Shown in pieces: positions 2,098 to 62,262 of a stretch of 64,000 bases of DNA (position 1 is its first letter; each line of letters starts with the position of its first letter). Position numbers and translations under genes: made by a program. The notes below the pieces were generated by a model. That model was not told the origin of the DNA. It did not search any database and saw only the letters and a list, made by a program, of their open reading frames with translations. The DNA is from an uncultured bacterium (GTDB taxonomy: Bacteria; Hinthialibacterota; Hinthialibacteria; OLB16), in the NCBI GenBank assembly GCA_964422415.1, contig CAYRBI010000003.1, positions 10,607 to 74,606 of the forward strand. Reading direction: 5' to 3'.

Positions 2098-3507
2098 TCA
2101 GCGTGCTCCCCGCATCAGGGTCAGGATGGTTCTGCAGATGATGGAGAAGTCCAGGAGAATCGACCAGTTCTTGATGTAGTAGAGGTCATACTGGAGTTTC
2201 TCTTTGGCCTCGCTCAGGCTGGCCGCGTATTTGTAACGGATCTGGGCCAAGCCAGTCAGTCCCGGGGGGGCTAGCAGACGGAAGTAGAAGGAGGGCAGCT
2301 CCCGCTCAATACGCTCCTGGATCTCCGGGCGTTCCGGACGTGGTCCAACAAAGGACATGTCCCCTTTCAGGATGTTGTAGAGCTGCGGAATCTCATCCAG
2401 ACGGGTTTTACGAAGGAAACCTCCCACTTTGGTCACGCGGGGATCTTTATCGGTGGCCCATTGTTCACCAGCTGGCTCGGCTCCCTCCACCATCGAACGG
2501 AATTTGTAGATCGTAAACTCCCGCCCGTACTGTCCATAGCGCTTCTGTGAATAAAGGACTGGTCCGGGGGAAGTAAATTTGACCAGGAACCAGATGAAGG
2601 GAAAAAGCGGCGCCGATAGAATCAATCCGGTTAAAGCAATACCCACATCCATGAGCCTCTTGGTCAGAACTGGGAACCGCCGGCTGATATTGACTTGCGA
2701 GGAAAAGAACCAGCTGTCATCGATATGATCCACCCGGATCTGTTCATAAAATTCCTCGAAGAAGCTGACTTCATCGATCAACACACACCCCAAGCTCAAC
2801 ACATCATAACAGTGTTGAAGCACCCCTGGTGTCCCCACCGCGCCCGCTCCAATAATGACCATATCGACCTGGTATTCCTTGCACACATGGGTCAGATTCT
2901 CCACACTTCCCAGATAGCCCCCATTCCCATTCTCCCCCGCTGTACAAAACCCGATGAAGGTGAATACGGAACGTTCCTGGCGGAGTTTCACCGCCAGCGT
3001 GGATTTATCCGGGGCTACGGAAACCAGGAGTACCTTCATGGGAAACCGCCGGATCAGGGAATGCACCACTACACGCGGGAGCAGGCCACCCACGAAAATA
3101 AAGATTCCGGTCAGGCCGAAAATCCAACGTCCCACCAGGCCAAACAACAAGACCGTAACCAGTAGCATGAATAACAAGATCGCGGTTACTGAAGCTTGGG
3201 CTTGAGCGAACCCATAATCATGGAAGCTTCTCAAGAAGCGTTTCTCATACAGGCCCGCCATCAAGCCGCCAATCACCACCGAGATCGCGATACACAGGTA
3301 TTGAGTCAGATCGGCGGAGGACCGGCCTGCTTGCGGTGACAACTGATAAGAGAGCCCTAGACTGACAATGGAGACAAGAAGATCGTAGGCAATCCAAATC
3401 GACGCCGGGATCTGGCAACCGATTCGAAACATGCTATTCGTGGTCTTACGCAAACCCAACAAGTCCTGCGCATCTTCAGGGATCTGTTGGGAGGGAGATA
3501 ATGCCAT
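2098..3507 (-). CDS. undecaprenyl-phosphate sugar phosphotransferase (bacterial sugar transferase family, WbaP/EpsB/WcaJ-like)
   Basis: 469 aa with N-terminal TM helices and a CoA-binding-like central domain. The C-terminal bacterial sugar transferase domain carries conserved blocks (KFRSM, [29 protein letters not shown]). Confidence 0.85.
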   Translation of the reverse strand: [469 protein letters not shown]

Positions 3508-3736
3508 ACACTTGTCCGGACCAGTGGCGGCCTGAAGTTCCGGGTTGCGTTTTCCGCTCAGAGGTGATTCAGGCTACAGCCGCTTTTTCTTTAAAAAAAA
3601 CCATCAGCAACCTTCTCTGGATGGGCCTGTATTCACTCAGCCATCATCCAGTAACGATTGCTCGTTGAACAGAAATACAGTACCAAAAAAAATGTTATAT
3701 GCCTCTCACCTACCCAGTGTCAACCCCGCCGGATAT

Positions 3737-4600
3737 TTATATCAATCCCTGGCTCCGGTAAAAGAAGAGCCCCAAGGATTCATATAAACAATTCCAAAAG
3801 ACTCCCCAACGGTACCGGTGTTCATTTAGCCGGGAAAGGTTGTTGTCGCGTTGCGGACAAGCACTCACCAGTGCGGAAACACCCGCCCGCTGGAAGACCG
3901 CTTTCGTGCGCCGGGTGTGGAGGGGAGAGGTGACCAGGATGATCTTCTTGCTTCCGCTCTTTTGGAGGTACTCGATGACCGCCCGGCTTTCATCAAAAGT
4001 ATTCTCGGAGGAGGCGGCGGTAACCAGATTGATTCCCACCAGGAGGGGTGCCAGATTGGCCCGGTCCAGTTCAGGAGTGGGTGCCCCGATAGCATAGGCC
4101 GCGGTGATGATAGTCGAGGCGTACCCCTTCTGGGCCAGTTCAATGCCTCGTAGCAGACGGTTCATGCCTTCATTGCTGAGGTAACCACTGTCGCTCACAT
4201 AGGTCCCCAACACCACAATTGCATCCGCTTTCTCCAATGGGTCATCCTCTATCAGGAAGTTGACCATGGTGGGTACCAACGGTGTGTAGATGACCACAAA
4301 GGTGAGTATGCACGCGGCACCGACCAAAAACCAAAGGATGACTCTCAGGCGAGTCAGGTAAAGCAGGCCGCTCAGTACCACCAGGGGGAAAAGGAGCCGA
4401 AAGGCATCAATCCCCTTGGATCCGAGCAGTGACGCGCCATAGGTGGGAATCAACAGGGTTGACAACACAGCTCCCTTGGTGAAGTGAAGCAGCCGGTCAT
4501 GCCAACGAGAGAATCCAAGCCGTATGGAACGAGACATAGCGAGAAGCGAGGATAGCCAATGATTCCGGATTTGGAAACAGAACTGGCCCAGGAGAACCAA
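3737..4600 (-). CDS. DUF218 (YdcF/ElyC/SanA-like) membrane-anchored protein
   Basis: 287 aa with N-terminal TM segments. DUF218 blocks are recognisable (ADAIVVLGT, SNEGMNRLLRGIELAQKGYASTII, ENTFDESRAVIEYL, KKIILVTSPLHTRR). It sits next to the sugar phosphotransferase gene. Confidence 0.6.
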   Translation of the reverse strand: MVLLGQFCFQIRNHWLSSLLAMSRSIRLGFSRWHDRLLHFTKGAVLSTLLIPTYGASLLGSKGIDAFRLLFPLVVLSGLLYLTRLRVILWFLVGAACILTFVVIYTPLVPTMVNFLIEDDPLEKADAIVVLGTYVSDSGYLSNEGMNRLLRGIELAQKGYASTIITAAYAIGAPTPELDRANLAPLLVGINLVTAASSENTFDESRAVIEYLQKSGSKKIILVTSPLHTRRTKAVFQRAGVSALVSACPQRDNNLSRLNEHRYRWGVFWNCLYESLGLFFYRSQGLI

Positions 4601-4664
4601 TCCCGGGCCAGTCTAGTTGACAATCCATTGTGAATGCAGCTCTCTGGAGATCCAGGAAGAAGGG

Positions 4665-6407
4665 TCAGGGCTTCTTGAGAGTCGCCATCGCCTCATCAGT
4701 TATTTTCTTTATCAAATCCTTGCGCGTGTCCTGGCTGCGTTCCGAAACAATCTGCCGGAAGAGAGGTTGGAACATCTCCTCGAAGGTTTTTACCCGTTCT
4801 GGTTCAAGTTGAACGACTTTAACAAGATCAACTCCTTTGTCGGTACGGAGTGGTTTTGGGGTCCAACTCCCCGGCATGAGTGTCTGCAAGGATTCCCACG
4901 TATTCACATCGAATCCGATTCCCTTGGCTAACCATTTGGTTTCGATCTTGAGGGGCCGCTTTTCTGACTCCGTAACCTTCACAAGCACCTCCGGCGAGGC
5001 GCCCTGGGTGACCTGGGCGAGAATCCCGGCCAGCTGTTTCTCGCCTTCACGATAGAGGAATTCGATCTGGGCGCGATTGACATCCTTTTGTTTGAGTTCC
5101 TCCATTGGGAAGGAGATGATCGTCATCAAGTAACGGTCGGTGATCCGGTACTTGTCCTTCCCCTTCTCGTAGACCGCACGGACTTCATCAGTGGTTGGTT
5201 TTGGCATGGCCGAGGTGAGACGATTCAGTTCCGTGGATAACCATGCTCCCGCGAGGACCGAATTCCGTTCAAAACATGCCCGGGCCTGTTCGGTGACACT
5301 GTTAATGTATCCGGCCTTCACAGCCTCCTCGTGGAGAATCTGCGGGAGCACAAACGCACGCCAGACCAGAGCGGCTGCCTCTTTCTTCTCCTTGGCCCGC
5401 ACCCATTCCCGTTTGCAGATATTATCCAGAAACTCCTGCAATTGCTCTCGAGAATAGTAGGTCTTTCCGACCCTTACCACCGACGTTGCGGATGGTACCT
5501 CGAGGTGCGCGCCAGGAAGCAACTGGACAAGACTGTCCTCGAAGATGTCATAACGGGACTTGTCATCCTGCAGGCTCTGGATGAAATCCTTGGCCCGCCG
5601 CATCTTGTTGGCATTATCGAGTTCCTGCCGAAGCGAGGAGACCGCCTTCTCAAACTCCATGGTGGTATCCCGAACACGATTCTCCAGACGTACGATCTCG
5701 AATCCATACCGGGTGGAGAACACCGGGCTGATCTCATTCACCTTGAGGCTCAAAGCAGTGTTTTTGATGATGGGCTGAAGCGGTTCATTCAACTTGAACG
5801 GACCCGCCACACGCCCCGGATCGCCCTTCACATCGGAGTATTTCTTAGCAACTTCAACAAAGCGGTCTGTCTCGACAATCCACGGCCGTTGCGGTTCTGT
5901 CCCCAGGTCCGCCAGAAGCTCCTTATGAGCTTGCTGGATCTTGGCTCTGACAGCCTCCACCTCGGCGGGAGACTTGCACTCGGTGGTGTCGGAAAAAATA
6001 TAGCGGAAACTAAAATTCCCCGGAGTCACATATTTCGAGAGCCGTTCATCATAGGCCTTATGGAGTTCTTCGGTGGTCACACTCACTGTCGAAGCTATCA
6101 AGTTTTCATAAAGCGGCTTTCCTCCCAGGCCTTGTTCGACCATCCACAACCGCCAACGGACCAAGGCTTCGTTTTGGAGGCCCAACTCAGTTGCTTTTTG
6201 AGCACCCAATCCATCCCGGGCTATCTGCTCAATCAAGGCCTCATCAGTCGTTCCCTCCGGCGAGGCTTGACGGGCACACAATAACTCAGCCTGGGTGATC
6301 TTCCCCCAAGCCCCCTCAGCCACCACCGGATCTTCCTGAGCGGCCACTCCCCACGAGGTCAACAATGCCATTAGGCAGAAGAGACACACACGCATGATCC
6401 TGTTCAC
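4665..6407 (-). CDS. SurA-like periplasmic chaperone / parvulin-type peptidyl-prolyl isomerase
   Basis: 580 aa with a cleavable signal peptide (LTSWGVAAQE). A PpiC/parvulin domain is present (FVEVAKKYSDVKGDPGRVAGPF...EISPVFSTRYGFEIVRLE), flanked by long helical chaperone-like regions. Confidence 0.65.
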   Translation of the reverse strand: MNRIMRVCLFCLMALLTSWGVAAQEDPVVAEGAWGKITQAELLCARQASPEGTTDEALIEQIARDGLGAQKATELGLQNEALVRWRLWMVEQGLGGKPLYENLIASTVSVTTEELHKAYDERLSKYVTPGNFSFRYIFSDTTECKSPAEVEAVRAKIQQAHKELLADLGTEPQRPWIVETDRFVEVAKKYSDVKGDPGRVAGPFKLNEPLQPIIKNTALSLKVNEISPVFSTRYGFEIVRLENRVRDTTMEFEKAVSSLRQELDNANKMRRAKDFIQSLQDDKSRYDIFEDSLVQLLPGAHLEVPSATSVVRVGKTYYSREQLQEFLDNICKREWVRAKEKKEAAALVWRAFVLPQILHEEAVKAGYINSVTEQARACFERNSVLAGAWLSTELNRLTSAMPKPTTDEVRAVYEKGKDKYRITDRYLMTIISFPMEELKQKDVNRAQIEFLYREGEKQLAGILAQVTQGASPEVLVKVTESEKRPLKIETKWLAKGIGFDVNTWESLQTLMPGSWTPKPLRTDKGVDLVKVVQLEPERVKTFEEMFQPLFRQIVSERSQDTRKDLIKKITDEAMATLKKP

Positions 6408-29397: not shown

Positions 29398-29480
29398 AAT
29401 GGATTGCCGCTTTCGCGGGAATGTCGATCCACAGTGGACATCCCTCACACTGTCATTCCCGCGAAGGCGGGAATCCATAT
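29398..29480. mobile_element. MITE-like palindromic element, degenerate copy (family of three copies in this window)
   Basis: aatggattgccgctttcgcgggaatgtcg ... tgtcattcccgcgaaggcgggaatccatatg. The inverted arms match the 86-bp elements at 35778 and 62052. It sits in the 159-bp gap between the ABC ATPase and permease genes. Confidence 0.7.
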
Positions 29481-31189: not shown

Positions 31190-31240
31190 GAGTTTTACCT
31201 TTGGTATGGGTATGGAGTTCAACCTTCAGGTTGCTCCAGG

Positions 31241-31257
31241 CACGCTAAAGCGTGAAC
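31241..31257. repeat. copy of the dispersed palindromic motif CACGC-TAAA-GCGTG-AAC
   Basis: cacgctaaagcgtgaac lies 52 bp after the CN-hydrolase stop. The same motif occurs at 40802, 52607 and 52636. Confidence 0.6.
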
Positions 31258-31287
31258 TCCGAACCGCTCAGCACAACCCCTAATCCA

Positions 31288-31692
31288 TTAGTTCGCCCCA
31301 TGCCCATGGCATCCGCAGGTGGTCATTACTGCTTCCTCTAATTGTCCTCCTGCTACCAGAAGCGCGGCGGCTTGAGCATCATCTTCCTTTGTGAGGTACA
31401 CAGCGATCCCTTTGGAGCGAAGATCCACGAGGAGCCGTGGTCCAAGGCCACCCACCACGACTGCATCACAATCTGTGAGAGCTTCGAGCAAGGAACTATG
31501 GGTATGAGAATGGTGCGTGGAGTGCGCTCCGCTGCCATCACACAAACCCTGGGCATGGGCGGTCATGGTATTCTGGCGGAACGTCTCCTGCTCCACTCCC
31601 TCTCCCGACCCGCTGAAGATCACAAAACCACTGCACCGCCCCATATGCTGCGAGACGGACTGACCATCATCCGAAGGAACCGCTATACGCAT
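31288..31692 (-). CDS. dinitrogenase FeMo-cofactor-binding domain (NifX/NifB/NafY-like) protein with His-rich insert and Cys/His C-terminus
   Basis: MRIAVPSDDGQSVSQHMGRCSGFVIF matches the start of the Nitro_FeMo-Co domain, and DAVVVGGLGPRLLVDLRSKGIAVY matches its end. The insert HSTHHSHTHSS and the CGCHGHGAN tail are present. The start is trimmed to MRIAVPS. Confidence 0.6.
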   Translation of the reverse strand: MRIAVPSDDGQSVSQHMGRCSGFVIFSGSGEGVEQETFRQNTMTAHAQGLCDGSGAHSTHHSHTHSSLLEALTDCDAVVVGGLGPRLLVDLRSKGIAVYLTKEDDAQAAALLVAGGQLEEAVMTTCGCHGHGAN

Positions 31693-31717
31693 TGTGAACA
31701 TACACCTCCAATGAATT

Positions 31718-32257
31718 TCATCCGGTGATTTCTTCGCCCGGTTCTTTTTCTATATCCACTGCAAGGAACCCTGAGGAGTTCTCAGCTCTTTTCCGCCTTC
31801 CTCGCCGACAGCATCCAGGAGCACCGGAGTACACCATTTCCTCTCCCTGGCATCTCACGCGATGGACACGGTCATATGAACAAAGGGGACATGTTTCTGG
31901 ACCTCCCACACCGAGGGGGACCTCAAAGGTCTGATGGCACCCCTCACATTCGTAGATCCTCACCAGATCCTCCCGGATGTGGCCACCCCGGAAGATAATC
32001 GTCTTCCCATGGATGAGTGCATCCGCGACCTTCCGGTGGGCAGAGGCGAGGACTCTTCCAAAGGTGGCGCGTGAAATCTCCATCCGCTCCGCCGCCGCCT
32101 CATGGTAAAGCCCCTCCAGGTCGGCCAATCGGAGCGCCTCGAGCTCATCCCATCCAAGGACTTGCTCCTCCAGCATCCAGACCGGGACACCACGCGGTTT
32201 ATAGACCGTGGCGGCCGGATCCGCATGGACACACCGCCCCTTGACTGGTCGCGCCAT
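31718..32257 (-). CDS. DUF134 (UPF0251) predicted DNA-binding protein with C-terminal Cys-rich zinc-ribbon-like extension
   Basis: MARPVKGRCV...KPRGVP...LGWDELEALRLADLEGLYHEAAAERMEISRATFGRVLASAHRKVADAL is the canonical DUF134 sequence. It is followed by CEGCHQTF...CPLC...C. Confidence 0.6.
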   Translation of the reverse strand: MARPVKGRCVHADPAATVYKPRGVPVWMLEEQVLGWDELEALRLADLEGLYHEAAAERMEISRATFGRVLASAHRKVADALIHGKTIIFRGGHIREDLVRIYECEGCHQTFEVPLGVGGPETCPLCSYDRVHRVRCQGEEMVYSGAPGCCRRGRRKRAENSSGFLAVDIEKEPGEEITG

Positions 32258-32374
32258 TCCCTTTTCCCTTGGCTCAGTATTATGAGTATATACTCATAAC
32301 AGACTGACTGTCCAGAAACCACCCCTTTCAAACAGGAAAAAGAGAGAAAGAAGACTTACTAAGAGGAGCCGATT

Positions 32375-35300
32375 TCAGGAGATTGACGAAATAGGAGAGC
32401 CGGGCGGTGTGGTAAACAAATCCGCCTGGCGCTCGATAACCACAACGGCTCTTATCCCACGCAGGCTCTTGAGCCGGTCTAGAAGAACTGTGGAGGGGAC
32501 TACCCGTGGCGACCCAAGCCGCGAGATCAGACGCCGCACCCCTGACCGCTTGATGATCCCCGCGCCGTTCTCAAAAACAAGAGGAATTCCTCGTTCTCCA
32601 CCGGAAAACCATCGTAAAAAGAGAGAGAGTTGTTCGAGTACCTCGGCGGTGGAGTCCTCCAAGACCACCTTAATTTGACTCCAAGACTCACTGGCATTCC
32701 CTAACAGCGCGGGTGTTTCGCATTCCCGCAACAGATACTGGGGGAGGCCCTGCCCGGTGTAGGGGCGCGAACGGACTTCACAGAAGAGCGGCCAAGGCTC
32801 TTTGAGGTGCATCCGGTAGCCATCCAGCCGCGCGGCCTCTGGGATTGGATGAGGGAGAAGGCTGAGCACCTTGCCGGATTCATCCACCACCCGGTAGACA
32901 GTCTCTTGGTTGAAAAGAAGGAAGGTCACCCAAGGTGATTGGGACACACCACCCGGTTGCGGTTCTCCCGCGGTAGCGAACACATCCACCTCATGGACCC
33001 AGCCCATTTGAAGCCAATCCGGCTGCCTGGCAAGACCCCCCTCAGCAAACCATTCCTGGGGAAACCATTCCCGGAAAGGCTCAAGTGGATTCTGGATGAT
33101 TCCCAGGCGCAACAGGCTGAGTTCGAGGTGTTCCTCGTGATGCAGGCTTAAACTATCCGGACCAACAATGGCGGCCGTTGTTGAATGGGCTTGCCCGGGG
33201 CGGACAGGGAAGAGGGTTTGCTGCGCGGCCCCACCGCCCTGAGCACGCAAGGAGAGGTGCCGGGCGCGGGCCTCGGTAAGGAGTGCTCCGGTGTTATGGC
33301 CGAAAGGCTCGAAAACACCCAGACGGATCAGTTGTGAAAGGAGGTTCCAACTCAGCCGGTGTTCAGGCCAGGACTTGAGCCATTCCTCCCACGAGAGATC
33401 CGGTACCGTTGGGGGCGGCTGGAATAGATCCCGTAAACCACCCCCCTGCAAAGAGCTGGGATAGGATGCCTCCAGGTCCATGGAAATCTGCGGTCCCACC
33501 CCAAGGATATTCTGTGTCCCCAAACGAAGCTGCCCTGTAGATGGTGAGAAATCATAACGCCCACCCGGAACCGCGCGAGGCGGGTCGAGCCGCGTGCCGC
33601 GCGCTCTCAGCAGGCTGTAGAGTTCACGGCGATCCTCGGTTTCACCGGGATAGAGGTAAGACAGGATCGCAGTCATTGCCGCGGGATCCCGCGCAAAGGC
33701 ATCGGCCATGGCCAGCAGCTGCTCAGCCTTCCTTAAAAACTCAGGACGGGATGGAAGGGGGTTGGGATTACCCAGGAACTGGACCACCGTTTCCCTTGTG
33801 TTCCGGTCCCACACATGTTGATCCCGGCTGGAGACCGGGTCCGGTTGCGGCCCCCCCTCTTCCAGGGAGAGCCACAGATCCATCTCCTCCGCTGTCAGGC
33901 GAAGAGCAGCGGTTCCCACCTGGTGGATCTGCTCCCGGTAGAGGAGCCAACCTCCCGTTCCTTGAGTGAACCGTTCCAAAGCTGCGCCAACATCCCCACG
34001 GATCCTGGCATCGAGGCCACTCTCATCAGCGGATCTGGTCCAATCCTCCCACCAGGGAGGCACTCCTCCTTCGGAGCGGAGAGGGTGTTCTCTTTGGACT
34101 GCGATCAGACGCAGATTCTCCCGCTGGGTCCAGAAGGACCAATGCCAGGCTAAAGCGAGCAGGTCCGCCAGCTCACCAATGAATGTGGGCATGGCCGCAC
34201 AGATCCACCTCCAGAGGAGCGGACGGTAACCAGTGGAACCGGGAATGGTCAACAGGCGCAGGAGCGATGCTGAAAGGCCGAGAACCTCGATCTTGCCAGT
34301 GTCATCCGCATACCCCTGATCCCGGAAGACCTCGCCGCGATGCTTCTCGATCCAGGTGGTAATCGATTCACGGGATTCTTCGCGGCGGGGCAGGACCGGG
34401 ACAGTGTCCCGGTAAAACGGCGCGCAGGAGAGGGTCTGAGTATTCGATGCCAAGAGCCGCAGAACCAAGGTTCCCACGGTCAGGGCATCGATGGGGTCTG
34501 TGTCCAATTCTGGATACCCGGTTTTCGCGGGCGCGAACACCTGTTCGAGGTTGACCGCAGAGACAATCAGCGAGGCCGGAGCATCACTGGAGGTGGAGCC
34601 TCCCCCTTGATCCAGGAAAGATGGGAGTGGAGGAAGCTTATCCGGGGGATCACCGGGAAATTCCAGATCCTCCCAGTGGGCAAGCAAACGGTAGCCAGCA
34701 TGGACAAGATCCTCATGGTCATCTGGGGCGGGAGCCGCGAAGCCACATCTTCCTTTCCCCAACAGAGCATTGAGAGACGCGAGTACCTCCTGCTCCCATT
34801 GGTGAGGGCAATCCACCTCGACTGGAGCATGAAGAGAGTCTTGAACTCCAGGATGGAAGGAGATGCCTTCATGGTAGGGATCGACACGGGTCAGGCCGAG
34901 GAGATGCGCGAAGAGCGAGGAGGTGGTCCATTCAGCTGTAGGCCGGAGTGTCCCCGGTGGCAGCCCCAGCCGCTTACGAACATCCCACAGGAGAAGCCAC
35001 ACAGTGGGCCAGCGGGTCTGTTTGAGGTATTGGAATTCTTCGACCAGCCGCTCCTTGACCCCTTCCCGGCGGATATGACCGGTGGCGATGGCGGTTTCCT
35101 GACCTAGGGTCCAAAAGAAGGAGGCGGCATCGGTACCCCGTGGAACCGGGTAGACCGGGAAGGTCAAACCACTGTGTTGATAGGGATCGAAGGGTTTGGC
35201 GGTCAGCTTCTCGACACCACGGAAGGCAGGAGTAAGCCCTTGCAGGAGCCTTACCACCCGCTCCGCATGGGGAATACGCCCTGGCAGATCTCTTGAACTG

Positions 35301-36163
35301 GTGACATTTCCCTGCCCCGTAAGCCGTGCGGCACATCCCCAGAAACGGTCATGCTGTGTCCGGTAGGCGGCTTGTACACACGCGAGCGGCGGAATTGGAA
35401 GAGGCGACCGGGAGGGAGAGGTTGTGGCGGTTTCTATAATCCCACCCGTTCGTGAATCAAAACAACAGAGACCTACTTGATCATGTGGCCACTGTTCCAG
35501 AAATGTGGACATCCAAGCAAAGCGTTCTCTGTCTGCACGGTTGGTAGGAATCCGTTGAAGAGCTGATCCAGCCAATCCCGCCACCAGGAAAACTCCCTCA
35601 CAGAAATTCAAAAGAACCTCGGGATGAACACCCTTTTCCGCCGATAGATCCCAGGCTTGTTTGATCTTGAGCAGATTCCGGAAGCCGGCATGGTTGACCG
35701 CAAGCAGGGCGGCCCGCTCACAAGCACAAGCTGGAGTACCATTAGCAATCCGTTGAATAACTCTTTGTTCTTTTGGCACCATGGATTCCCGCCTTCGCGG
35801 GAATGACGATTTCCGAAGAATTTCGCTTATTCTGTCATTCCCGCGAAGGCGGGAATCCATGGTCACGTTCTCTTTCAACAGGCTGTTGGGGGACAGTAAG
35901 AGATCGAAGACATCGGGACTCCGGATCTCTGCTAGGCCTGAAGGGGGTGTAATGAGAACTGTCATCCCGGCCAGACCCAGCATGTGGTTTCTGGCGCAGG
36001 CCTCCAGGAAGCTTGGTCCTCCCTGGAGGGTACCCGTGTCCACCAACGCGGCTACACGGTAGCCCACCTCGGCGGCCGCCTGGACCAGCAGGTTGGGTGG
36101 CACAATCCCCCCCATACGGTCATGGGAGGACTGTAACAGGATAAGGGGCCCATGGTTTGGCAT
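32375..36163 (-). CDS. DNA polymerase III alpha (DnaE)-like protein with degenerate PHP and palm catalytic motifs (putative pseudo-polymerase)
   Basis: PHP-like N-terminus: [46 protein letters not shown] against the DnaE sequence [54 protein letters not shown] aligns with LLATNNTGYQNL. The palm block is [24 protein letters not shown] against [22 protein letters not shown]. The PDFDxDF site reads HAPVEVDCP, and FDFLGL reads IEVLGL. There are no stops across 3.8 kb. The start is set at the internal ATG at 36163, which has AAGGA 10 nt upstream. Confidence 0.55.
   Translation of the reverse strand: [1262 protein letters not shown]
35778..35863. mobile_element. 86-bp MITE-like palindromic element inserted in-frame in the DnaE-like ORF
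   Basis: accatggattcccgccttcgcgggaatgacgatttcc ... gtcattcccgcgaaggcgggaatccatggt. The 30-bp inverted arms are near-identical to the copy at 62052-62137. It translates (minus strand) to ...[28 protein letters not shown]... inside the PHP-like region. Confidence 0.75.
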
Positions 36164-36317
36164 ACACGGGAATCCTTGGGAAAAGGGAGCAAAATGACAA
36201 GACACCCCCATTCCCATATACTGCTCGAGCCGGTATAGTCACTTTCAACACCGGGCCCATGAGGATGCAGGATTTCCCCATGCGGCTCAAGACAGGCCGA
36301 TTTCCCCGGAGTAAAAA

Positions 36318-37307
36318 ATGGCAACCAAACGTACCAAAGACCAGAAAGGCACCTGGGTCACCTACCGTCCCGATATCAAGGTAATGGACTGCACGGTCCG
36401 GGATGGTGGCCTGATTAACAACCACAACTTCGAGGACTCTTTTGTCCGCGCGGTCTACCAAACATGTGTCGCCGCGGGTATCGACTACATGGAAATCGGC
36501 TACAAAGGAGCCCAGCGCCTCTACTCCCCCACCGAGCATGGCAAGTGGAAGCATTGCAGCGAAGACGACCTGCGCCGCATCATGGATGACAATCCGGCCA
36601 ATCTGAAAATTTCAGCCATGGCCGACGCGGACCGGTGTGATTACCACGTGGATATTCTCCCCAAAAAGGAGAGCGTCCTCGATATGATCCGCGTGGCCTG
36701 CTACATCAATCAGATCCCCACCGCGATCGACATGGTCAAAGATGCCACCGATAAGGGGTATGAAACCACAGTCAACATCATGGCGGTCTCGACAGTCCAT
36801 GAAAAAGACCTGCTGGAAGCCCTCGAGGTCCTGGCCGAAACCCCCGTCGGCTCGGTGTACATTGTGGACAGCAACGGCGCCCTTTATTCAGAGGAAATCC
36901 AGGATCTCACACGTCAATTCCGCCGGGCCTTGAATGGGACGGATAAACTAGTGGGGATCCACGCCCACAACAATCAACAATTAGCCTACGCCAACACCAT
37001 CGAGGCCATTGTTTGTGGGGCGAGTATGCTCGATGCAACCATCAACGGTATGGGACGTGGCGCGGGGAACTGTCCGCTCGAACTGCTCATCGGATTCCTG
37101 CACAATCCGAAATTTAAGCTGCGTCCCATCTTGGAGTGCATTCAAAACGTATTTCTTCCCATGCGGGACAAGATGGAGTGGGGGTATCAGCTGGCCTATA
37201 TGGTCACTGGCCAGCTCAACCAACACCCACGCTATGCCATTAAGGTACGTGAGAGTTCAACCCCGGATGATATTGTCGGTTTTTACGACCAAATGACAAA
37301 CGATTAA
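36318..37307 (+). CDS. HMGL-like (pyruvate carboxyltransferase domain) aldolase, 4-hydroxy-2-oxovalerate aldolase-like
   Basis: DCTVRDGGL resembles the DCTLRDGxQ metal-site motif. The C-terminal GIHAHNNQQLAYANTIEAIVCGASMLDATINGMGRGAGNCPLE matches the HMGL-like signature. Confidence 0.7.
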   Translation: MATKRTKDQKGTWVTYRPDIKVMDCTVRDGGLINNHNFEDSFVRAVYQTCVAAGIDYMEIGYKGAQRLYSPTEHGKWKHCSEDDLRRIMDDNPANLKISAMADADRCDYHVDILPKKESVLDMIRVACYINQIPTAIDMVKDATDKGYETTVNIMAVSTVHEKDLLEALEVLAETPVGSVYIVDSNGALYSEEIQDLTRQFRRALNGTDKLVGIHAHNNQQLAYANTIEAIVCGASMLDATINGMGRGAGNCPLELLIGFLHNPKFKLRPILECIQNVFLPMRDKMEWGYQLAYMVTGQLNQHPRYAIKVRESSTPDDIVGFYDQMTND

Positions 37308-62008: not shown

Positions 62009-62051
62009 CAGGTCTTCAGCGGTCTATTGAAAAAAAAACAGTTGCGATGAG

Positions 62052-62137
62052 ACCATGGATTCCCGCTTTCGCGGGAATGACGATTTCCATTAAAAATCCC
62101 CTGATCCGTCATTCCCGCGAAAGCGGGAATCCATGGT
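62052..62137. mobile_element. 86-bp MITE-like palindromic element, intergenic copy
   Basis: accatggattcccgctttcgcgggaatgacgatttccattaaaaatcccctgatccgtcattcccgcgaaagcgggaatccatggt. It has the same length and terminal inverted repeats as the copy at 35778. It lies 44 bp after the FG-GAP gene stop. Confidence 0.8.
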
Positions 62138-62262
62138 CGCGGGACTTTCCCAACCAACGGATAGGGCAGTAGTTGGCCTTTACAGGCTCAGAATCTTGAC
62201 CCCCTCACCCATCACAATGAGTGAGGGGGTCTTTTCATATACACAATCGGGCTCATATACCG

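What the first reader, a model, noticed from the sequence alone, without database searches (positions are those of the whole stretch)
32375..36217. Full-length DnaE homolog with apparently ablated catalytic residues (pseudo-polymerase)
The 1262-aa minus-strand ORF aligns by eye with DNA polymerase III alpha across the PHP domain and the palm. The PHP-domain region lacks the His-rich metal motifs: the position of HVHSxYS reads LLQSSHD.
In the palm:
- the PDFDxDF motif reads HAPVEVDCP;
- FDFLGL reads IEVLGL.
- If this alignment is right, all three catalytic aspartates are replaced (D401, D403 and D555 in E. coli numbering, which I recall from memory).
A stop-free 3.8-kb frame in 60% GC DNA argues the gene is under selection rather than decaying. 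No imuA/imuB or other replication genes are adjacent. An inactive C-family polymerase scaffold maintained as a gene would be unusual and I am not aware of a described family.
Basis: partly seen in the sequence, partly recalled or inferred. Interest (0 to 1): 0.8.

Follow-up and report, generated by a model that had tools for sequence, protein, structure and literature searches.

The report
Polymerase-dead DnaE paralogue, clamp motifs kept
This gene encodes a full-length relative of the bacterial replicative DNA polymerase (DnaE) that has lost the residues needed to make DNA but is kept under selection next to a normal dnaE, so it appears to be the first conserved non-catalytic member reported for this polymerase family.

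Summary
The ORF is real: window 32375-36163, minus strand, 1262 aa (the open frame runs up to 36217). It is a full-length, collinear homologue of Pol III alpha/DnaE: hhalign 99.4% (E 3.6e-21, about 1040 columns) and Foldseek top hit Mtb DnaE1 (E 8.5e-31). The polymerase core is degenerate. The PHP His motif and the GS nucleotide-binding motif are lost. A canonical dnaE lies elsewhere in the genome. Orthologues occur in 7 of 7 genomes of one Hinthialibacteria family, 3 of 36,145 genera overall. dN/dS is 0.13, and 0.04 in the dead palm. The HhH motif, the OB fold and two beta-clamp-type motifs (QQTLF internal, QADLF at the C-terminus) are conserved. The window's copy alone carries an in-frame 144-nt MITE in a PHP loop. 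Other motif-less DnaE-like groups exist in metagenomes. Two surveys of C-family polymerases describe no such group. Best reading: a non-catalytic scaffold or regulator that binds the clamp and DNA. Its function has not been tested.

The parts
32375..36163 (-). Gene for the polymerase-dead DnaE paralogue: 1262 aa plus stop, starting at the conserved MPNHGP. The open frame extends upstream to the ATG at 36217.
   Evidence: orthologue starts; coordinates checked by translation
35174..36163 (-). PHP-like domain (residues 1-330) with the metal-binding His motif lost: LILLQSSHD at 36119-36145 in place of HLHLHSEYS.
   Evidence: Pfam PHP E 1.3e-3; hhalign and MAFFT motif columns; AF2 model with pLDDT about 80-95 outside the loop
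35742..35887 (.). MITE-like palindromic repeat, about 146 nt with an 86-nt core palindrome, inserted in frame. It adds 48 aa (protein residues about 89-136) in a variable PHP loop and is present only in this genome's copy.
   Evidence: absent from all orthologues; 174 loci in the genome; residues 77-145 have pLDDT below 50; the low-side junction is bridged by contigs of two runs
34394..35173 (-). Palm and thumb region (residues 331-590) with a degenerate active site. GS motif site [13 protein letters not shown] is at 34928-34966. Strand [11 protein letters not shown] (E449, D451) is at 34799-34831. Strand [10 protein letters not shown] (R569 at the D555 position) is at 34445-34474.
   Evidence: 12-member columns; strands 448-452 and 566-572; omega 0.04 for residues 331-435
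33374..34393 (-). Fingers region (residues 591-930). It holds [12 protein letters not shown] (34271-34309, the counterpart of canonical LDDxKTYELL), a W-rich family-specific insert (WHWSFW, PPWW), [10 protein letters not shown] (33926-33958, counterpart of YQEQ), [11 protein letters not shown] (33746-33778, counterpart of GFNKSH) and the HhH motif ILGVGPQIS (33476-33514).
33209..33223 (-). Internal beta-clamp-type motif QQTLF (residues 981-985), at the position of the canonical internal motif (GQVSLFG). It is followed by a variable disordered linker.
   Evidence: Q-x-[TS]-[LF]-[FL] in 12 of 12 members; weak support from complex prediction
32429..33088 (-). OB-fold plus a C-terminal alpha/beta domain (residues 1026-1245), as in Pol III alpha.
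   Evidence: AF2 pLDDT 88, pTM 0.82; Foldseek top hit is the Taq Pol III alpha C-terminus, followed by SSB and AspRS OB folds; hhalign alignment runs to the canonical C-terminus
32414..32428 (-). C-terminal clamp-type motif QADLF (residues 1246-1250) in a flexible tail.
   Evidence: (Q-x-x-[LIM]-F in 10 of 12 full-length members and most C-terminal fragments; absent from the clade's canonical DnaE)

Best explanation
The gene encodes a conserved, non-catalytic paralogue of the replicative polymerase Pol III alpha (DnaE). It keeps the whole DnaE architecture: PHP, palm, thumb, fingers, HhH/beta-binding region, OB fold and C-terminal domain. It has lost both the polymerase active site and the PHP metal site. 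The DNA-contact modules and two beta-clamp-binding-type peptides remain conserved. The most likely mode of action is therefore that it sits on DNA and on the sliding clamp without synthesising DNA, acting as a scaffold, placeholder or regulator in replication or damage tolerance. This would resemble ImuB, the dead Y-family polymerase, or the inactivated polymerase module of Pol epsilon. Shown here: homology, loss of the catalytic motifs, purifying selection, coexistence with a normal dnaE, and conservation of the clamp-type motifs. Inferred: inactivity in vitro, clamp and DNA binding, and the cellular role.
For: Homology and architecture: hhalign of the family against 28 canonical DnaE sequences gives 99.4%, E 3.6e-21, collinear 1-1253 against 37-1232. 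The AF2 model (pLDDT 72, pTM 0.65) has C-family polymerases as its top 19 Foldseek hits, Mtb DnaE1 first at E 8.5e-31. The C-terminal model (pLDDT 88) hits the Taq Pol III alpha C-terminus and OB folds. Dead core, across 12 members: HxHxHS is lost; GPGRGS becomes PGTLRPT; the first Asp becomes P/W/V/Q/L/E/S/A/T; the second Asp is 9 E, 2 D, 1 G; the D555 position is R/Q/E/V/N; GFNKSH becomes GNPNPLP. A normal dnaE with all motifs is on contig C4. Selection: 7 of 7 genomes of family f1 carry it at 35-72% identity with open frames. dN/dS against the closest orthologue is 0.129, ranging from 0.04 to 0.19 by domain, compared with 0.055 for dnaE in the same genome pair. Retained interaction modules: the HhH motif, the internal Q-x-[TS]-[LF]-[FL] motif in 12 of 12 members at the canonical clamp-motif position, and the C-terminal Q-x-x-[LIM]-F in 10 of 12. 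Complex prediction of this genome's DnaN with residues 925-1000 gave weak support: score 0.46, best of 3 controls 0.01. The mark was reached by 58 of 80 solved complexes and 2 of 110 mismatched pairs, but scores of 0.60 or under came from only 7 of those 80 solved complexes and from both mismatches. The runs agree in at least 69% of contacts, and partner pLDDT is at least 64. Clamp-peptide complexes have been solved, so this pass may reflect likeness to known structures rather than binding.
Against: Inactivity is inferred from sequence only. A Glu/Asp pair (E449, D451) sits on the catalytic strand and is acidic in most members, so residual or altered metal-dependent chemistry is not excluded. 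The strongest constraint lies in the 'dead' palm (omega 0.04), which could mean a new active or binding site rather than a mere scaffold. No conserved operon partner was found to indicate a pathway. Clamp binding rests on short motifs and a weak prediction. The window's copy carries a 48-aa MITE insert, and one congener (G002) shows the gene in two frames, so individual copies may be impaired.
Confidence: 0.6

Rival explanations
1. It is still an enzyme. This would be either a divergent nucleotidyltransferase or polymerase using a re-wired active site (E449/D451 plus another carboxylate), or a protein whose highly constrained palm and W-rich fingers insert have acquired a different catalytic or ligand-binding function.
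For: The second and third positions of the PDxDxD strand are acidic in 11 of 12 and 12 of 12 members. The palm subdomain 331-435 is the most constrained part (omega 0.04). Many family-specific invariant residues occur (RGTD, [19 protein letters not shown], PPWW). The host clade lacks Y-family polymerases in 6 of 7 genomes and has no DnaE2, which would leave a role for an unusual polymerase.
Against: The GS motif that holds the incoming dNTP is gone. The first Asp and the D555 position are not conserved, and one member (P0007) has Gly at the E449 position. D/E interchange at a metal ligand is unusual for active polymerases (established knowledge). No third conserved carboxylate was identified.
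Confidence: 0.17
2. It is a decaying or neutral remnant: a duplicated dnaE on its way to loss, tolerated because it is harmless. The MITE insertion and the split copies would be signs of decay.
For: A MITE is inserted in this copy. G002 shows the gene in two frames, and one MAG (L027) has a frameshift. The protein evolves about three times faster than dnaE (dN 0.195 against 0.066).
Against: The frame is open in orthologues down to 35% identity across three genera. dN/dS is 0.13 overall and below 0.2 in every domain. More than 150 columns are invariant. The MITE is exactly in frame, stop-free and in a surface loop. The L027 frameshift is contradicted by an intact 51-member cluster, P0005.
Confidence: 0.05
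3. It is a non-catalytic partner of the active DnaE1 itself. It would pair with DnaE1 or with tau, rather than primarily with the clamp, to regulate or stabilise the replicase, as 'prozyme'-type dead paralogues do.
For: Every carrier genome searched except the 68%-complete G006 also has a canonical dnaE. The C-terminal domain resembles the tau-binding region of Pol III alpha. Dead paralogues regulating their active counterparts are a known theme (PMC5201418, abstract seen).
Against: There is no co-localisation with dnaE or dnaX. No interaction was tested. The two conserved clamp-type motifs point to the clamp as the docking site.
Confidence: 0.15

Closest known systems
DnaE1 (Pol III alpha subunit, C-family replicase; e.g. 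PDB 7pu7, 2hpi, 2hnh)
   Same: Same length, same domain order and same fold from PHP to the C-terminal domain. The HhH motif, the OB fold and the position of the internal clamp motif are also shared.
   Different: About 18-19% identity. Scores are below every Pfam and NCBIfam cut-off. The PHP metal ligands, the GS motif, the catalytic Asp triad and the GFNKSH motif are lost. W-rich inserts in the fingers and a C-terminal QxxLF are added. It coexists with a true DnaE1.
[quoted passage not shown]
   Same: It is a second, non-essential-looking DnaE paralogue with an inactive PHP domain. The NCBIfam 'error-prone DNA polymerase' model aligns weakly to residues 30-480.
   Different: DnaE2 keeps the polymerase active site and is typically linked to imuA/imuB or PolY/RecA (PMC12926913). 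Here the active site is lost, no imuA/imuB is adjacent, and no Y-family gene was found in the genome. DnaE2-like sequences of relatives cluster with the active polymerases, not with this family.
ImuB (catalytically dead Y-family polymerase that binds the clamp and bridges the mutasome)
   Same: The concept is the same: a polymerase fold without catalytic residues, kept under selection, carrying a clamp-binding motif (PMC6511836 and PMC12926913 for ImuB; here).
   Different: The fold family differs (Y against C). ImuB has known partners and an operon context, and none was identified here.
Inactivated B-family polymerase modules (the C-terminal half of Pol epsilon; inactivated archaeal PolB)
   Same: These are full-length polymerase homologues with disrupted active sites, retained for structural roles (PMC2669801, PMC4104785).
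   Different: They belong to a different polymerase family and a different domain of life. No equivalent was found described for the C-family.
Other motif-less DnaE-like proteins found here in metagenomes: group C (P0020, P0022, P0043, P0060; also G009 of the same class) and group B (P0024-28, P0030, P0034 and others)
   Same: They lack the GS motif, PDxDxDF, KxDFLGL, YQEQ and GFNKSH. Group C joins family A in the tree and shares some family motifs, and P0043 shares a C-terminal QxxLLF. The one group B genome checked also has a canonical dnaE.
   Different: Group B keeps the PHP HxHxHS motif, has a deletion over the fingers motifs and forms a separate clade. Sources annotate these proteins only as 'DNA polymerase III alpha subunit' or 'hypothetical protein'. 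Their taxonomy was not resolved.

Membership tests
C-family DNA polymerase (Pol III alpha / DnaE) - homology and fold | Collinear PHP-palm-thumb-fingers-HhH-OB architecture detectable by profile and structure comparison | tested here: met
   hhalign 99.4%, E 3.6e-21, about 1040 columns; Foldseek top 19 hits are all C-family, best E 8.5e-31; the C-terminus hits Taq Pol III alpha
C-family DNA polymerase (Pol III alpha / DnaE) - curated family membership | Score above the Pfam PF07733 / PF02811 gathering thresholds or the NCBIfam equivalog cut-offs | tested here: not met
   PF02811 19.5 bits against 26.4; PF07733 11.7 against 23.9; TIGR00594 24.8 against 434; PRK05673 13.4 against 1002
C-family DNA polymerase - active enzyme | Three catalytic aspartates (E. 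coli D401, D403, D555; numbering from memory, with the motifs PDxDxDF and KxDFLGL seen in the canonical sequences here) | tested here: not met
   The first Asp aligns to non-conserved residues, the second to 9 E, 2 D, 1 G, and the D555 position to R/Q/E/V/N or a deletion
C-family DNA polymerase - active enzyme | GS motif (GPGRGS) of the Pol-beta-like nucleotidyltransferase palm, and the fingers motifs YQEQ and GFNKSH | tested here: not met
   GPGRGS becomes PGTLRPT plus a 3-aa insert; GFNKSH becomes GNPNPLP; YQEQ becomes Y[RQAH][ED][QST]
C-family DNA polymerase - PHP proofreading exonuclease | Nine-residue metal-binding pattern HHDHEH[C/H]DH (PMC12926913) | tested here: not met
   HxH becomes L/I-x-[QHRKF]. 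Only the first motif was examined column by column; the other ligands were not scored individually
DnaE2 / ImuC mutasome polymerase | Intact polymerase site plus genomic association with imuA/imuB or PolY/RecA | tested here: not met
   The active site is lost. The neighbours are Wzy/TPR, FtsX, an ABC ATPase, a CN-hydrolase, NifX-like, DUF134, HMGL-like, an esterase and MBOAT. No IMS domain was found in the genome, which is 89% complete
Clamp-binding replisome or repair proteins | Consensus QxxL(x)F / QL[SD]LF peptide that is accessible and conserved | tested here: met
   Internal QQTLF in 12 of 12 members, in a disordered linker; C-terminal QADLF type in 10 of 12, in a flexible tail. This shows the motif is present, not that it binds.
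Clamp-binding replisome or repair proteins | Physical binding to DnaN | tested here: inconclusive
   Complex prediction gave weak support: score 0.46 against a best control of 0.01, with the calibration caveats given. No experiment was done.
Pseudogene | Stops or frameshifts, and dN/dS near 1 | tested here: not met
   The 1262-codon frame is open. omega is 0.13 overall and 0.04-0.19 by domain. The gene is conserved in 7 of 7 genomes of the family

The most novel reading that the evidence does not exclude
This family, together with the related motif-less DnaE-like groups in metagenomes, represents a previously unrecognised class of non-catalytic C-family polymerases. These would work as clamp-tethered scaffolds. 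In this Hinthialibacteria clade, which lacks Y-family polymerases and DnaE2, the family would organise damage tolerance or polymerase traffic at the fork in place of the usual translesion synthesis machinery.
Probability: 0.2. Interest if true: 0.8.

Novelty: new variant of a known kind. Interest (0 to 1): 0.62.

Why it matters
Catalytically dead polymerase paralogues with structural roles are known for the Y family (ImuB), the B family (Pol epsilon C-terminal module, archaeal inactivated PolB) and the X family. The two comprehensive surveys of bacterial C-family polymerases recognise only DnaE1-3 and PolC, and they discuss inactivation only for the PHP domain. A selected, full-length DnaE without a polymerase site, but with clamp-type motifs and DNA-binding modules, would extend the pseudo-polymerase idea to the bacterial replicase family. 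It would give a natural 'separation-of-function' version of Pol III alpha for studying its non-catalytic roles. It also raises the question of how a clade without Y-family polymerases or DnaE2 deals with lesions. In practical terms, such genes are auto-annotated as 'DNA polymerase III subunit alpha' or 'PHP domain-containing protein', which would miscount the replicases in a genome.

Tried and rejected
- **Conserved operon partners.** Only the divergently transcribed HMGL-like and esterase genes are shared, within the genus and the sister genus. The distant orthologue loci share no gene with the window's neighbourhood, and those of L026 encode glycosidase, polysaccharide and oxidoreductase genes. 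No pathway clue came from this.
- **Promoter and terminator scan of 31200-36600.** The number of sites was not above the shuffled expectation.
- **RNA evidence.** No RNA holder is listed. Only two DNA runs of one sludge study hold the gene.
- **Reads over the MITE.** Logan contigs reproduce the ORF with no differences, but they break inside the repeat (depth about 950). Only the low-coordinate junction is bridged; no listed contig covers 35887-35964.
- **Census with a group B palm profile.** It was uninformative. The profile hits ordinary DnaE at under 20% of the maximal score in 26,448 genera and shows nothing at 40% or more in the phyla listed.
- **IQ-TREE 'quick' tree.** It did not finish in the time limit. 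The FastTree result used instead carries an explicit long-branch warning, so the A+C grouping and the origin of the family (DnaE1 or DnaE2) are not settled.
- **First count of in-frame MITE copies.** The figure of 31 copies in frames of 400 aa or more was an overstatement. Most lie in the first 100 codons of the frame. Only 6 are clearly internal.
- **The L027 'gene split'.** It is a single frameshift in one MAG, not a conserved fission. The G002 split was not examined further.
- **Y-family complementarity.** f1 lacks PolY and carries the paralogue, but this is a single clade and so one event. G009, which has the related P0020-type gene, does have a PolY. It is therefore only a lead.

Full report
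**1. The observation**

The minus-strand frame 32375-36217 is stop-free for 1280 codons. All orthologues start at a conserved MPxxGPLI. Local GC is 58-59%, and a chance open frame of this length is negligible.

Single-sequence searches give only weak, sub-threshold similarity to C-family polymerases:
- Pfam PHP E 1.3e-3 and DNA_pol3_alpha E 0.2.
- TIGR00594 E 5e-6, over residues 381-452 only.
- Mtb DnaE1 in the PDB, E 4e-3.

**2. It is a full-length DnaE homologue**

I collected orthologues and 28 canonical DnaE sequences from the same class. The profile-profile alignment gives 99.4% probability, E 3.6e-21, over about 1040-1055 columns. It is collinear from residue 1 to 1253 of the protein against 37-1232 of the genome's own DnaE.

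An AlphaFold2 model of residues 1-1200 has pLDDT 72 and pTM 0.65. Its top 19 Foldseek hits are Mtb DnaE1 (E 8.5e-31), Taq and E. coli Pol III alpha, and PolC, aligned over 1060-1370 columns.

A separate model of residues 1020-1262 (pLDDT 88, pTM 0.82) shows an OB barrel followed by an alpha/beta domain. Its best match is the Taq Pol III alpha C-terminus, followed by generic OB folds.

**3. The catalytic machinery is gone**

The table compares canonical sequences of the same class with 12 full-length family members.

| Canonical motif | In this family |
|---|---|
| HLHLHSEYS (PHP) | LILLQSSHD |
| [10 protein letters not shown] (the GS motif of the Pol-beta-like palm) | [14 protein letters not shown] |
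| PPDIDTDF | (H)AP-V-E-V-D-C-P |
| KMDFLGL strand | LGGLxLRL |
| GFNKSH | GNPNPLP |
| YQEQ | Y[RQAH][ED][QST] |

- BLASTP, hhalign and MAFFT agree on one register for the PDxDxD strand. The first Asp aligns to P/W/V/Q/L/E/S/A/T. The second is 9 E, 2 D and 1 G. The third, non-catalytic Asp is always D or E.
- MAFFT aligns the KMDFLGL strand with LGGLxLRL. The D555 position then reads R/Q/E/V/N, and R569 in the window. The AF2 model makes residues 566-572 a beta-strand. hhalign instead deletes this segment.
- Under either alignment there is no conserved carboxylate at the D555 position.
- The E. coli residue numbers are from memory. The motifs themselves were read from the canonical sequences fetched here.

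**4. A normal dnaE exists**

PF07733 finds a single match above its cut-off in the 6.33-Mb, 89%-complete genome. It lies on contig C4 in a 1246-aa frame, scores 327 bits and has every motif intact. No DnaE2 is present. No Y-family (IMS) domain was found either.

**5. It is under purifying selection and confined to one clade**

- The gene is present in 7 of 7 genomes of the window's family, covering three genera, at 35-72% identity. It was not found in 34 other genomes searched.
- A census with a family-specific 170-aa profile finds 3 carriers among 36,145 genera, all in Hinthialibacteria.
- An exhaustive profile search of 1.84 billion representatives finds only 7 full-length clusters plus fragments, followed by a steep drop in score.
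- Nei-Gojobori dN/dS against the closest orthologue is 0.129 (dS 1.5). By domain it ranges from 0.04 for palm residues 331-435 to 0.19 for the OB and C-terminal domains. The canonical dnaE gives 0.055 for the same genome pair. More distant pairs are saturated at synonymous sites.

**6. What is retained**

- The HhH motif (ILGVGPQ) and the OB fold are retained.
- At the exact position of the canonical internal clamp motif (GQVSLFG) there is a Q-x-[TS]-[LF]-[FL] peptide in all 12 members. In the window it is QQTLF, residues 981-985, followed by a disordered linker.
- A second motif, Q-x-x-[LIM]-F, sits in the flexible C-terminal tail of 10 of 12 full-length members and of most C-terminal fragments. 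In the window it is QADLF, residues 1246-1250. The clade's canonical DnaE lacks it.
- A complex prediction of the genome's DnaN with residues 925-1000 gave only weak support. The score was 0.46 against a best control of 0.01. Scores of 0.60 or under came from 7 of 80 solved complexes and from both of the mismatched pairs that passed. Contacts agreed in at least 69% across runs, and partner pLDDT was at least 64. Clamp-peptide complexes have been solved, so the pass may be from likeness.

**7. The in-frame repeat**

Residues about 89-136 are a 144-nt insertion that is absent from every orthologue. It is a palindromic MITE-like element with 174 loci in this genome, 120 of them 80 nt or longer. 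It lies in the variable PHP loop, and the model is disordered there (residues 77-145). Contigs from two sludge-metagenome runs reproduce the ORF without differences and bridge the low-coordinate junction, but they break inside the repeat.

**8. Context**

The neighbours are unrelated to replication. Only the divergent HMGL-like and esterase genes are syntenic, and only within the genus and the sister genus. The DUF134 and NifX-like genes downstream are absent from congeners. The distant orthologue loci share no gene with the window's neighbourhood, and those of L026 encode other, unrelated genes.

**9. Wider relatives**

The best non-family hits of the profile search are themselves atypical. 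All score far below the NCBIfam equivalog cut-offs and lack the GS motif, PDxDxDF, KxDFLGL, YQEQ and GFNKSH.
- Group B (about 1030-1100 aa) keeps the PHP HxHxHS motif and has a deletion over the fingers motifs.
- Group C (P0020, P0022, P0043, P0060) shares some family motifs and joins family A in a FastTree tree. That join carries a long-branch warning.
- A P0020-type gene lies in G009, a different family of the same class, and is interrupted there by a frameshift.
- A group B gene lies in an ordinary chromosomal context in a genome that also has a canonical dnaE.
- Sources name these proteins 'DNA polymerase III alpha subunit' or 'hypothetical protein'.

**10. Phyletic lead**

Y-family polymerases were found in 28 of 28 class relatives outside family f1, but in only 1 of 7 f1 genomes. 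This is one clade and therefore one event. G009 has both a PolY and the P0020-type gene. I treat this as a lead, not as evidence.

**11. Literature**

The 2013 and 2026 NAR surveys of C-family and of all bacterial polymerases recognise DnaE1, DnaE2, DnaE3 and PolC. They discuss inactivation only for the PHP and DnaQ domains of the C-family. Dead polymerase cores are described for the Y and X families (PMC3919608, PMC12926913). Inactivated B-family modules are described in PMC2669801 and PMC4104785. A targeted search found no paper on a non-catalytic DnaE. Both surveys used complete genomes, which would not include this uncultivated clade.

**12. Verdict**

The most likely mechanism is non-catalytic engagement of DNA and the sliding clamp as a scaffold or regulator. 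A re-wired enzymatic function using the retained Glu/Asp pair and the strongly constrained palm is the main rival.

It is a new variant of a known kind: pseudo-polymerases are known, but this would be a first for the C-family. Its occurrence in genomes is narrow, but it has relatives in metagenomes.

Noticed in passing
window 35742-35887; also about 29399-29478 and about 62051-62141; genome-wide: A MITE-like palindromic element (core ATGGATTCCCGCCTTCGCGGGAATGAC...GTCATTCCCGCGAAGGCGGGAATCCAT) has 174 loci in the 6.3-Mb genome, 120 of them 80 nt or longer. It translates to the familiar 'MDSRLRGND...SFPRRRES' peptides. Six copies lie well inside frames of 300 aa or more. One of these is in a Wzy_C-domain protein (C117), so stop-free in-frame insertion into genes recurs here, reminiscent of Rickettsia palindromic elements (that comparison is from memory).
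   Followed up: partly
metagenomic proteins P0024-P0028, P0030, P0034, P0036, P0037, P0039, P0041, P0053, P0069 (group B); L060: A separate clade of DnaE-like proteins of about 1030-1100 aa keeps the PHP HxHxHS motif but lacks all polymerase-core motifs and has a deletion over the fingers. The one genome checked also has a canonical dnaE. This may be a 'PHP-only' DnaE derivative, analogous to PolX proteins with a dead polymerase and an active PHP domain.
   Followed up: partly
L095 (G009:C12:314500-322500), ORFs 2516-4057 and 3664-5916: A P0020-type motif-less DnaE-like gene lies in another family of the same class. There it is split into two overlapping frames, which is either a frameshift or an assembly error. 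It was not found in 27 genomes of families f2, f3, f5 and f6.
   Followed up: partly
whole genome G000 and its relatives: No Y-family polymerase (PF00817) was found in 6 of 7 genomes of the window's family, while all 28 other class members searched have one to four. The window's genome also has no DnaE2.
   Followed up: partly
window 31288-32257 (minus strand): A DUF134 gene and a NifX/Nitro_FeMo-Co-like gene sit between the paralogue and the CN-hydrolase gene. They are absent at this position in two congeners (L023, L024), so they are a local insertion.
   Followed up: no
window about 36215-36290 (upstream of the gene, shared with the divergent HMGL-like gene): The intergenic region is conserved with the congener L023. 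It contains an inverted repeat, CTTGAGCCG ... CGGCTC(G/A)AG, with arms about 55 nt apart. It could be an operator or a leader structure.
   Followed up: no
L059 / P0176 (G000:C21): The genome's DnaN open frame ends in a long acidic tail (EEEERPPESMEEDEDFEDEDMDEEEDL), which is unusual for beta clamps.
   Followed up: no
L014 (G002:C138:6638-9900): The orthologue in congener G002 is matched in two separate frames (967 aa and 291 aa), broken near the variable linker after the internal QxTLF motif. This could be a frameshift, a fission or an assembly error.
   Followed up: no
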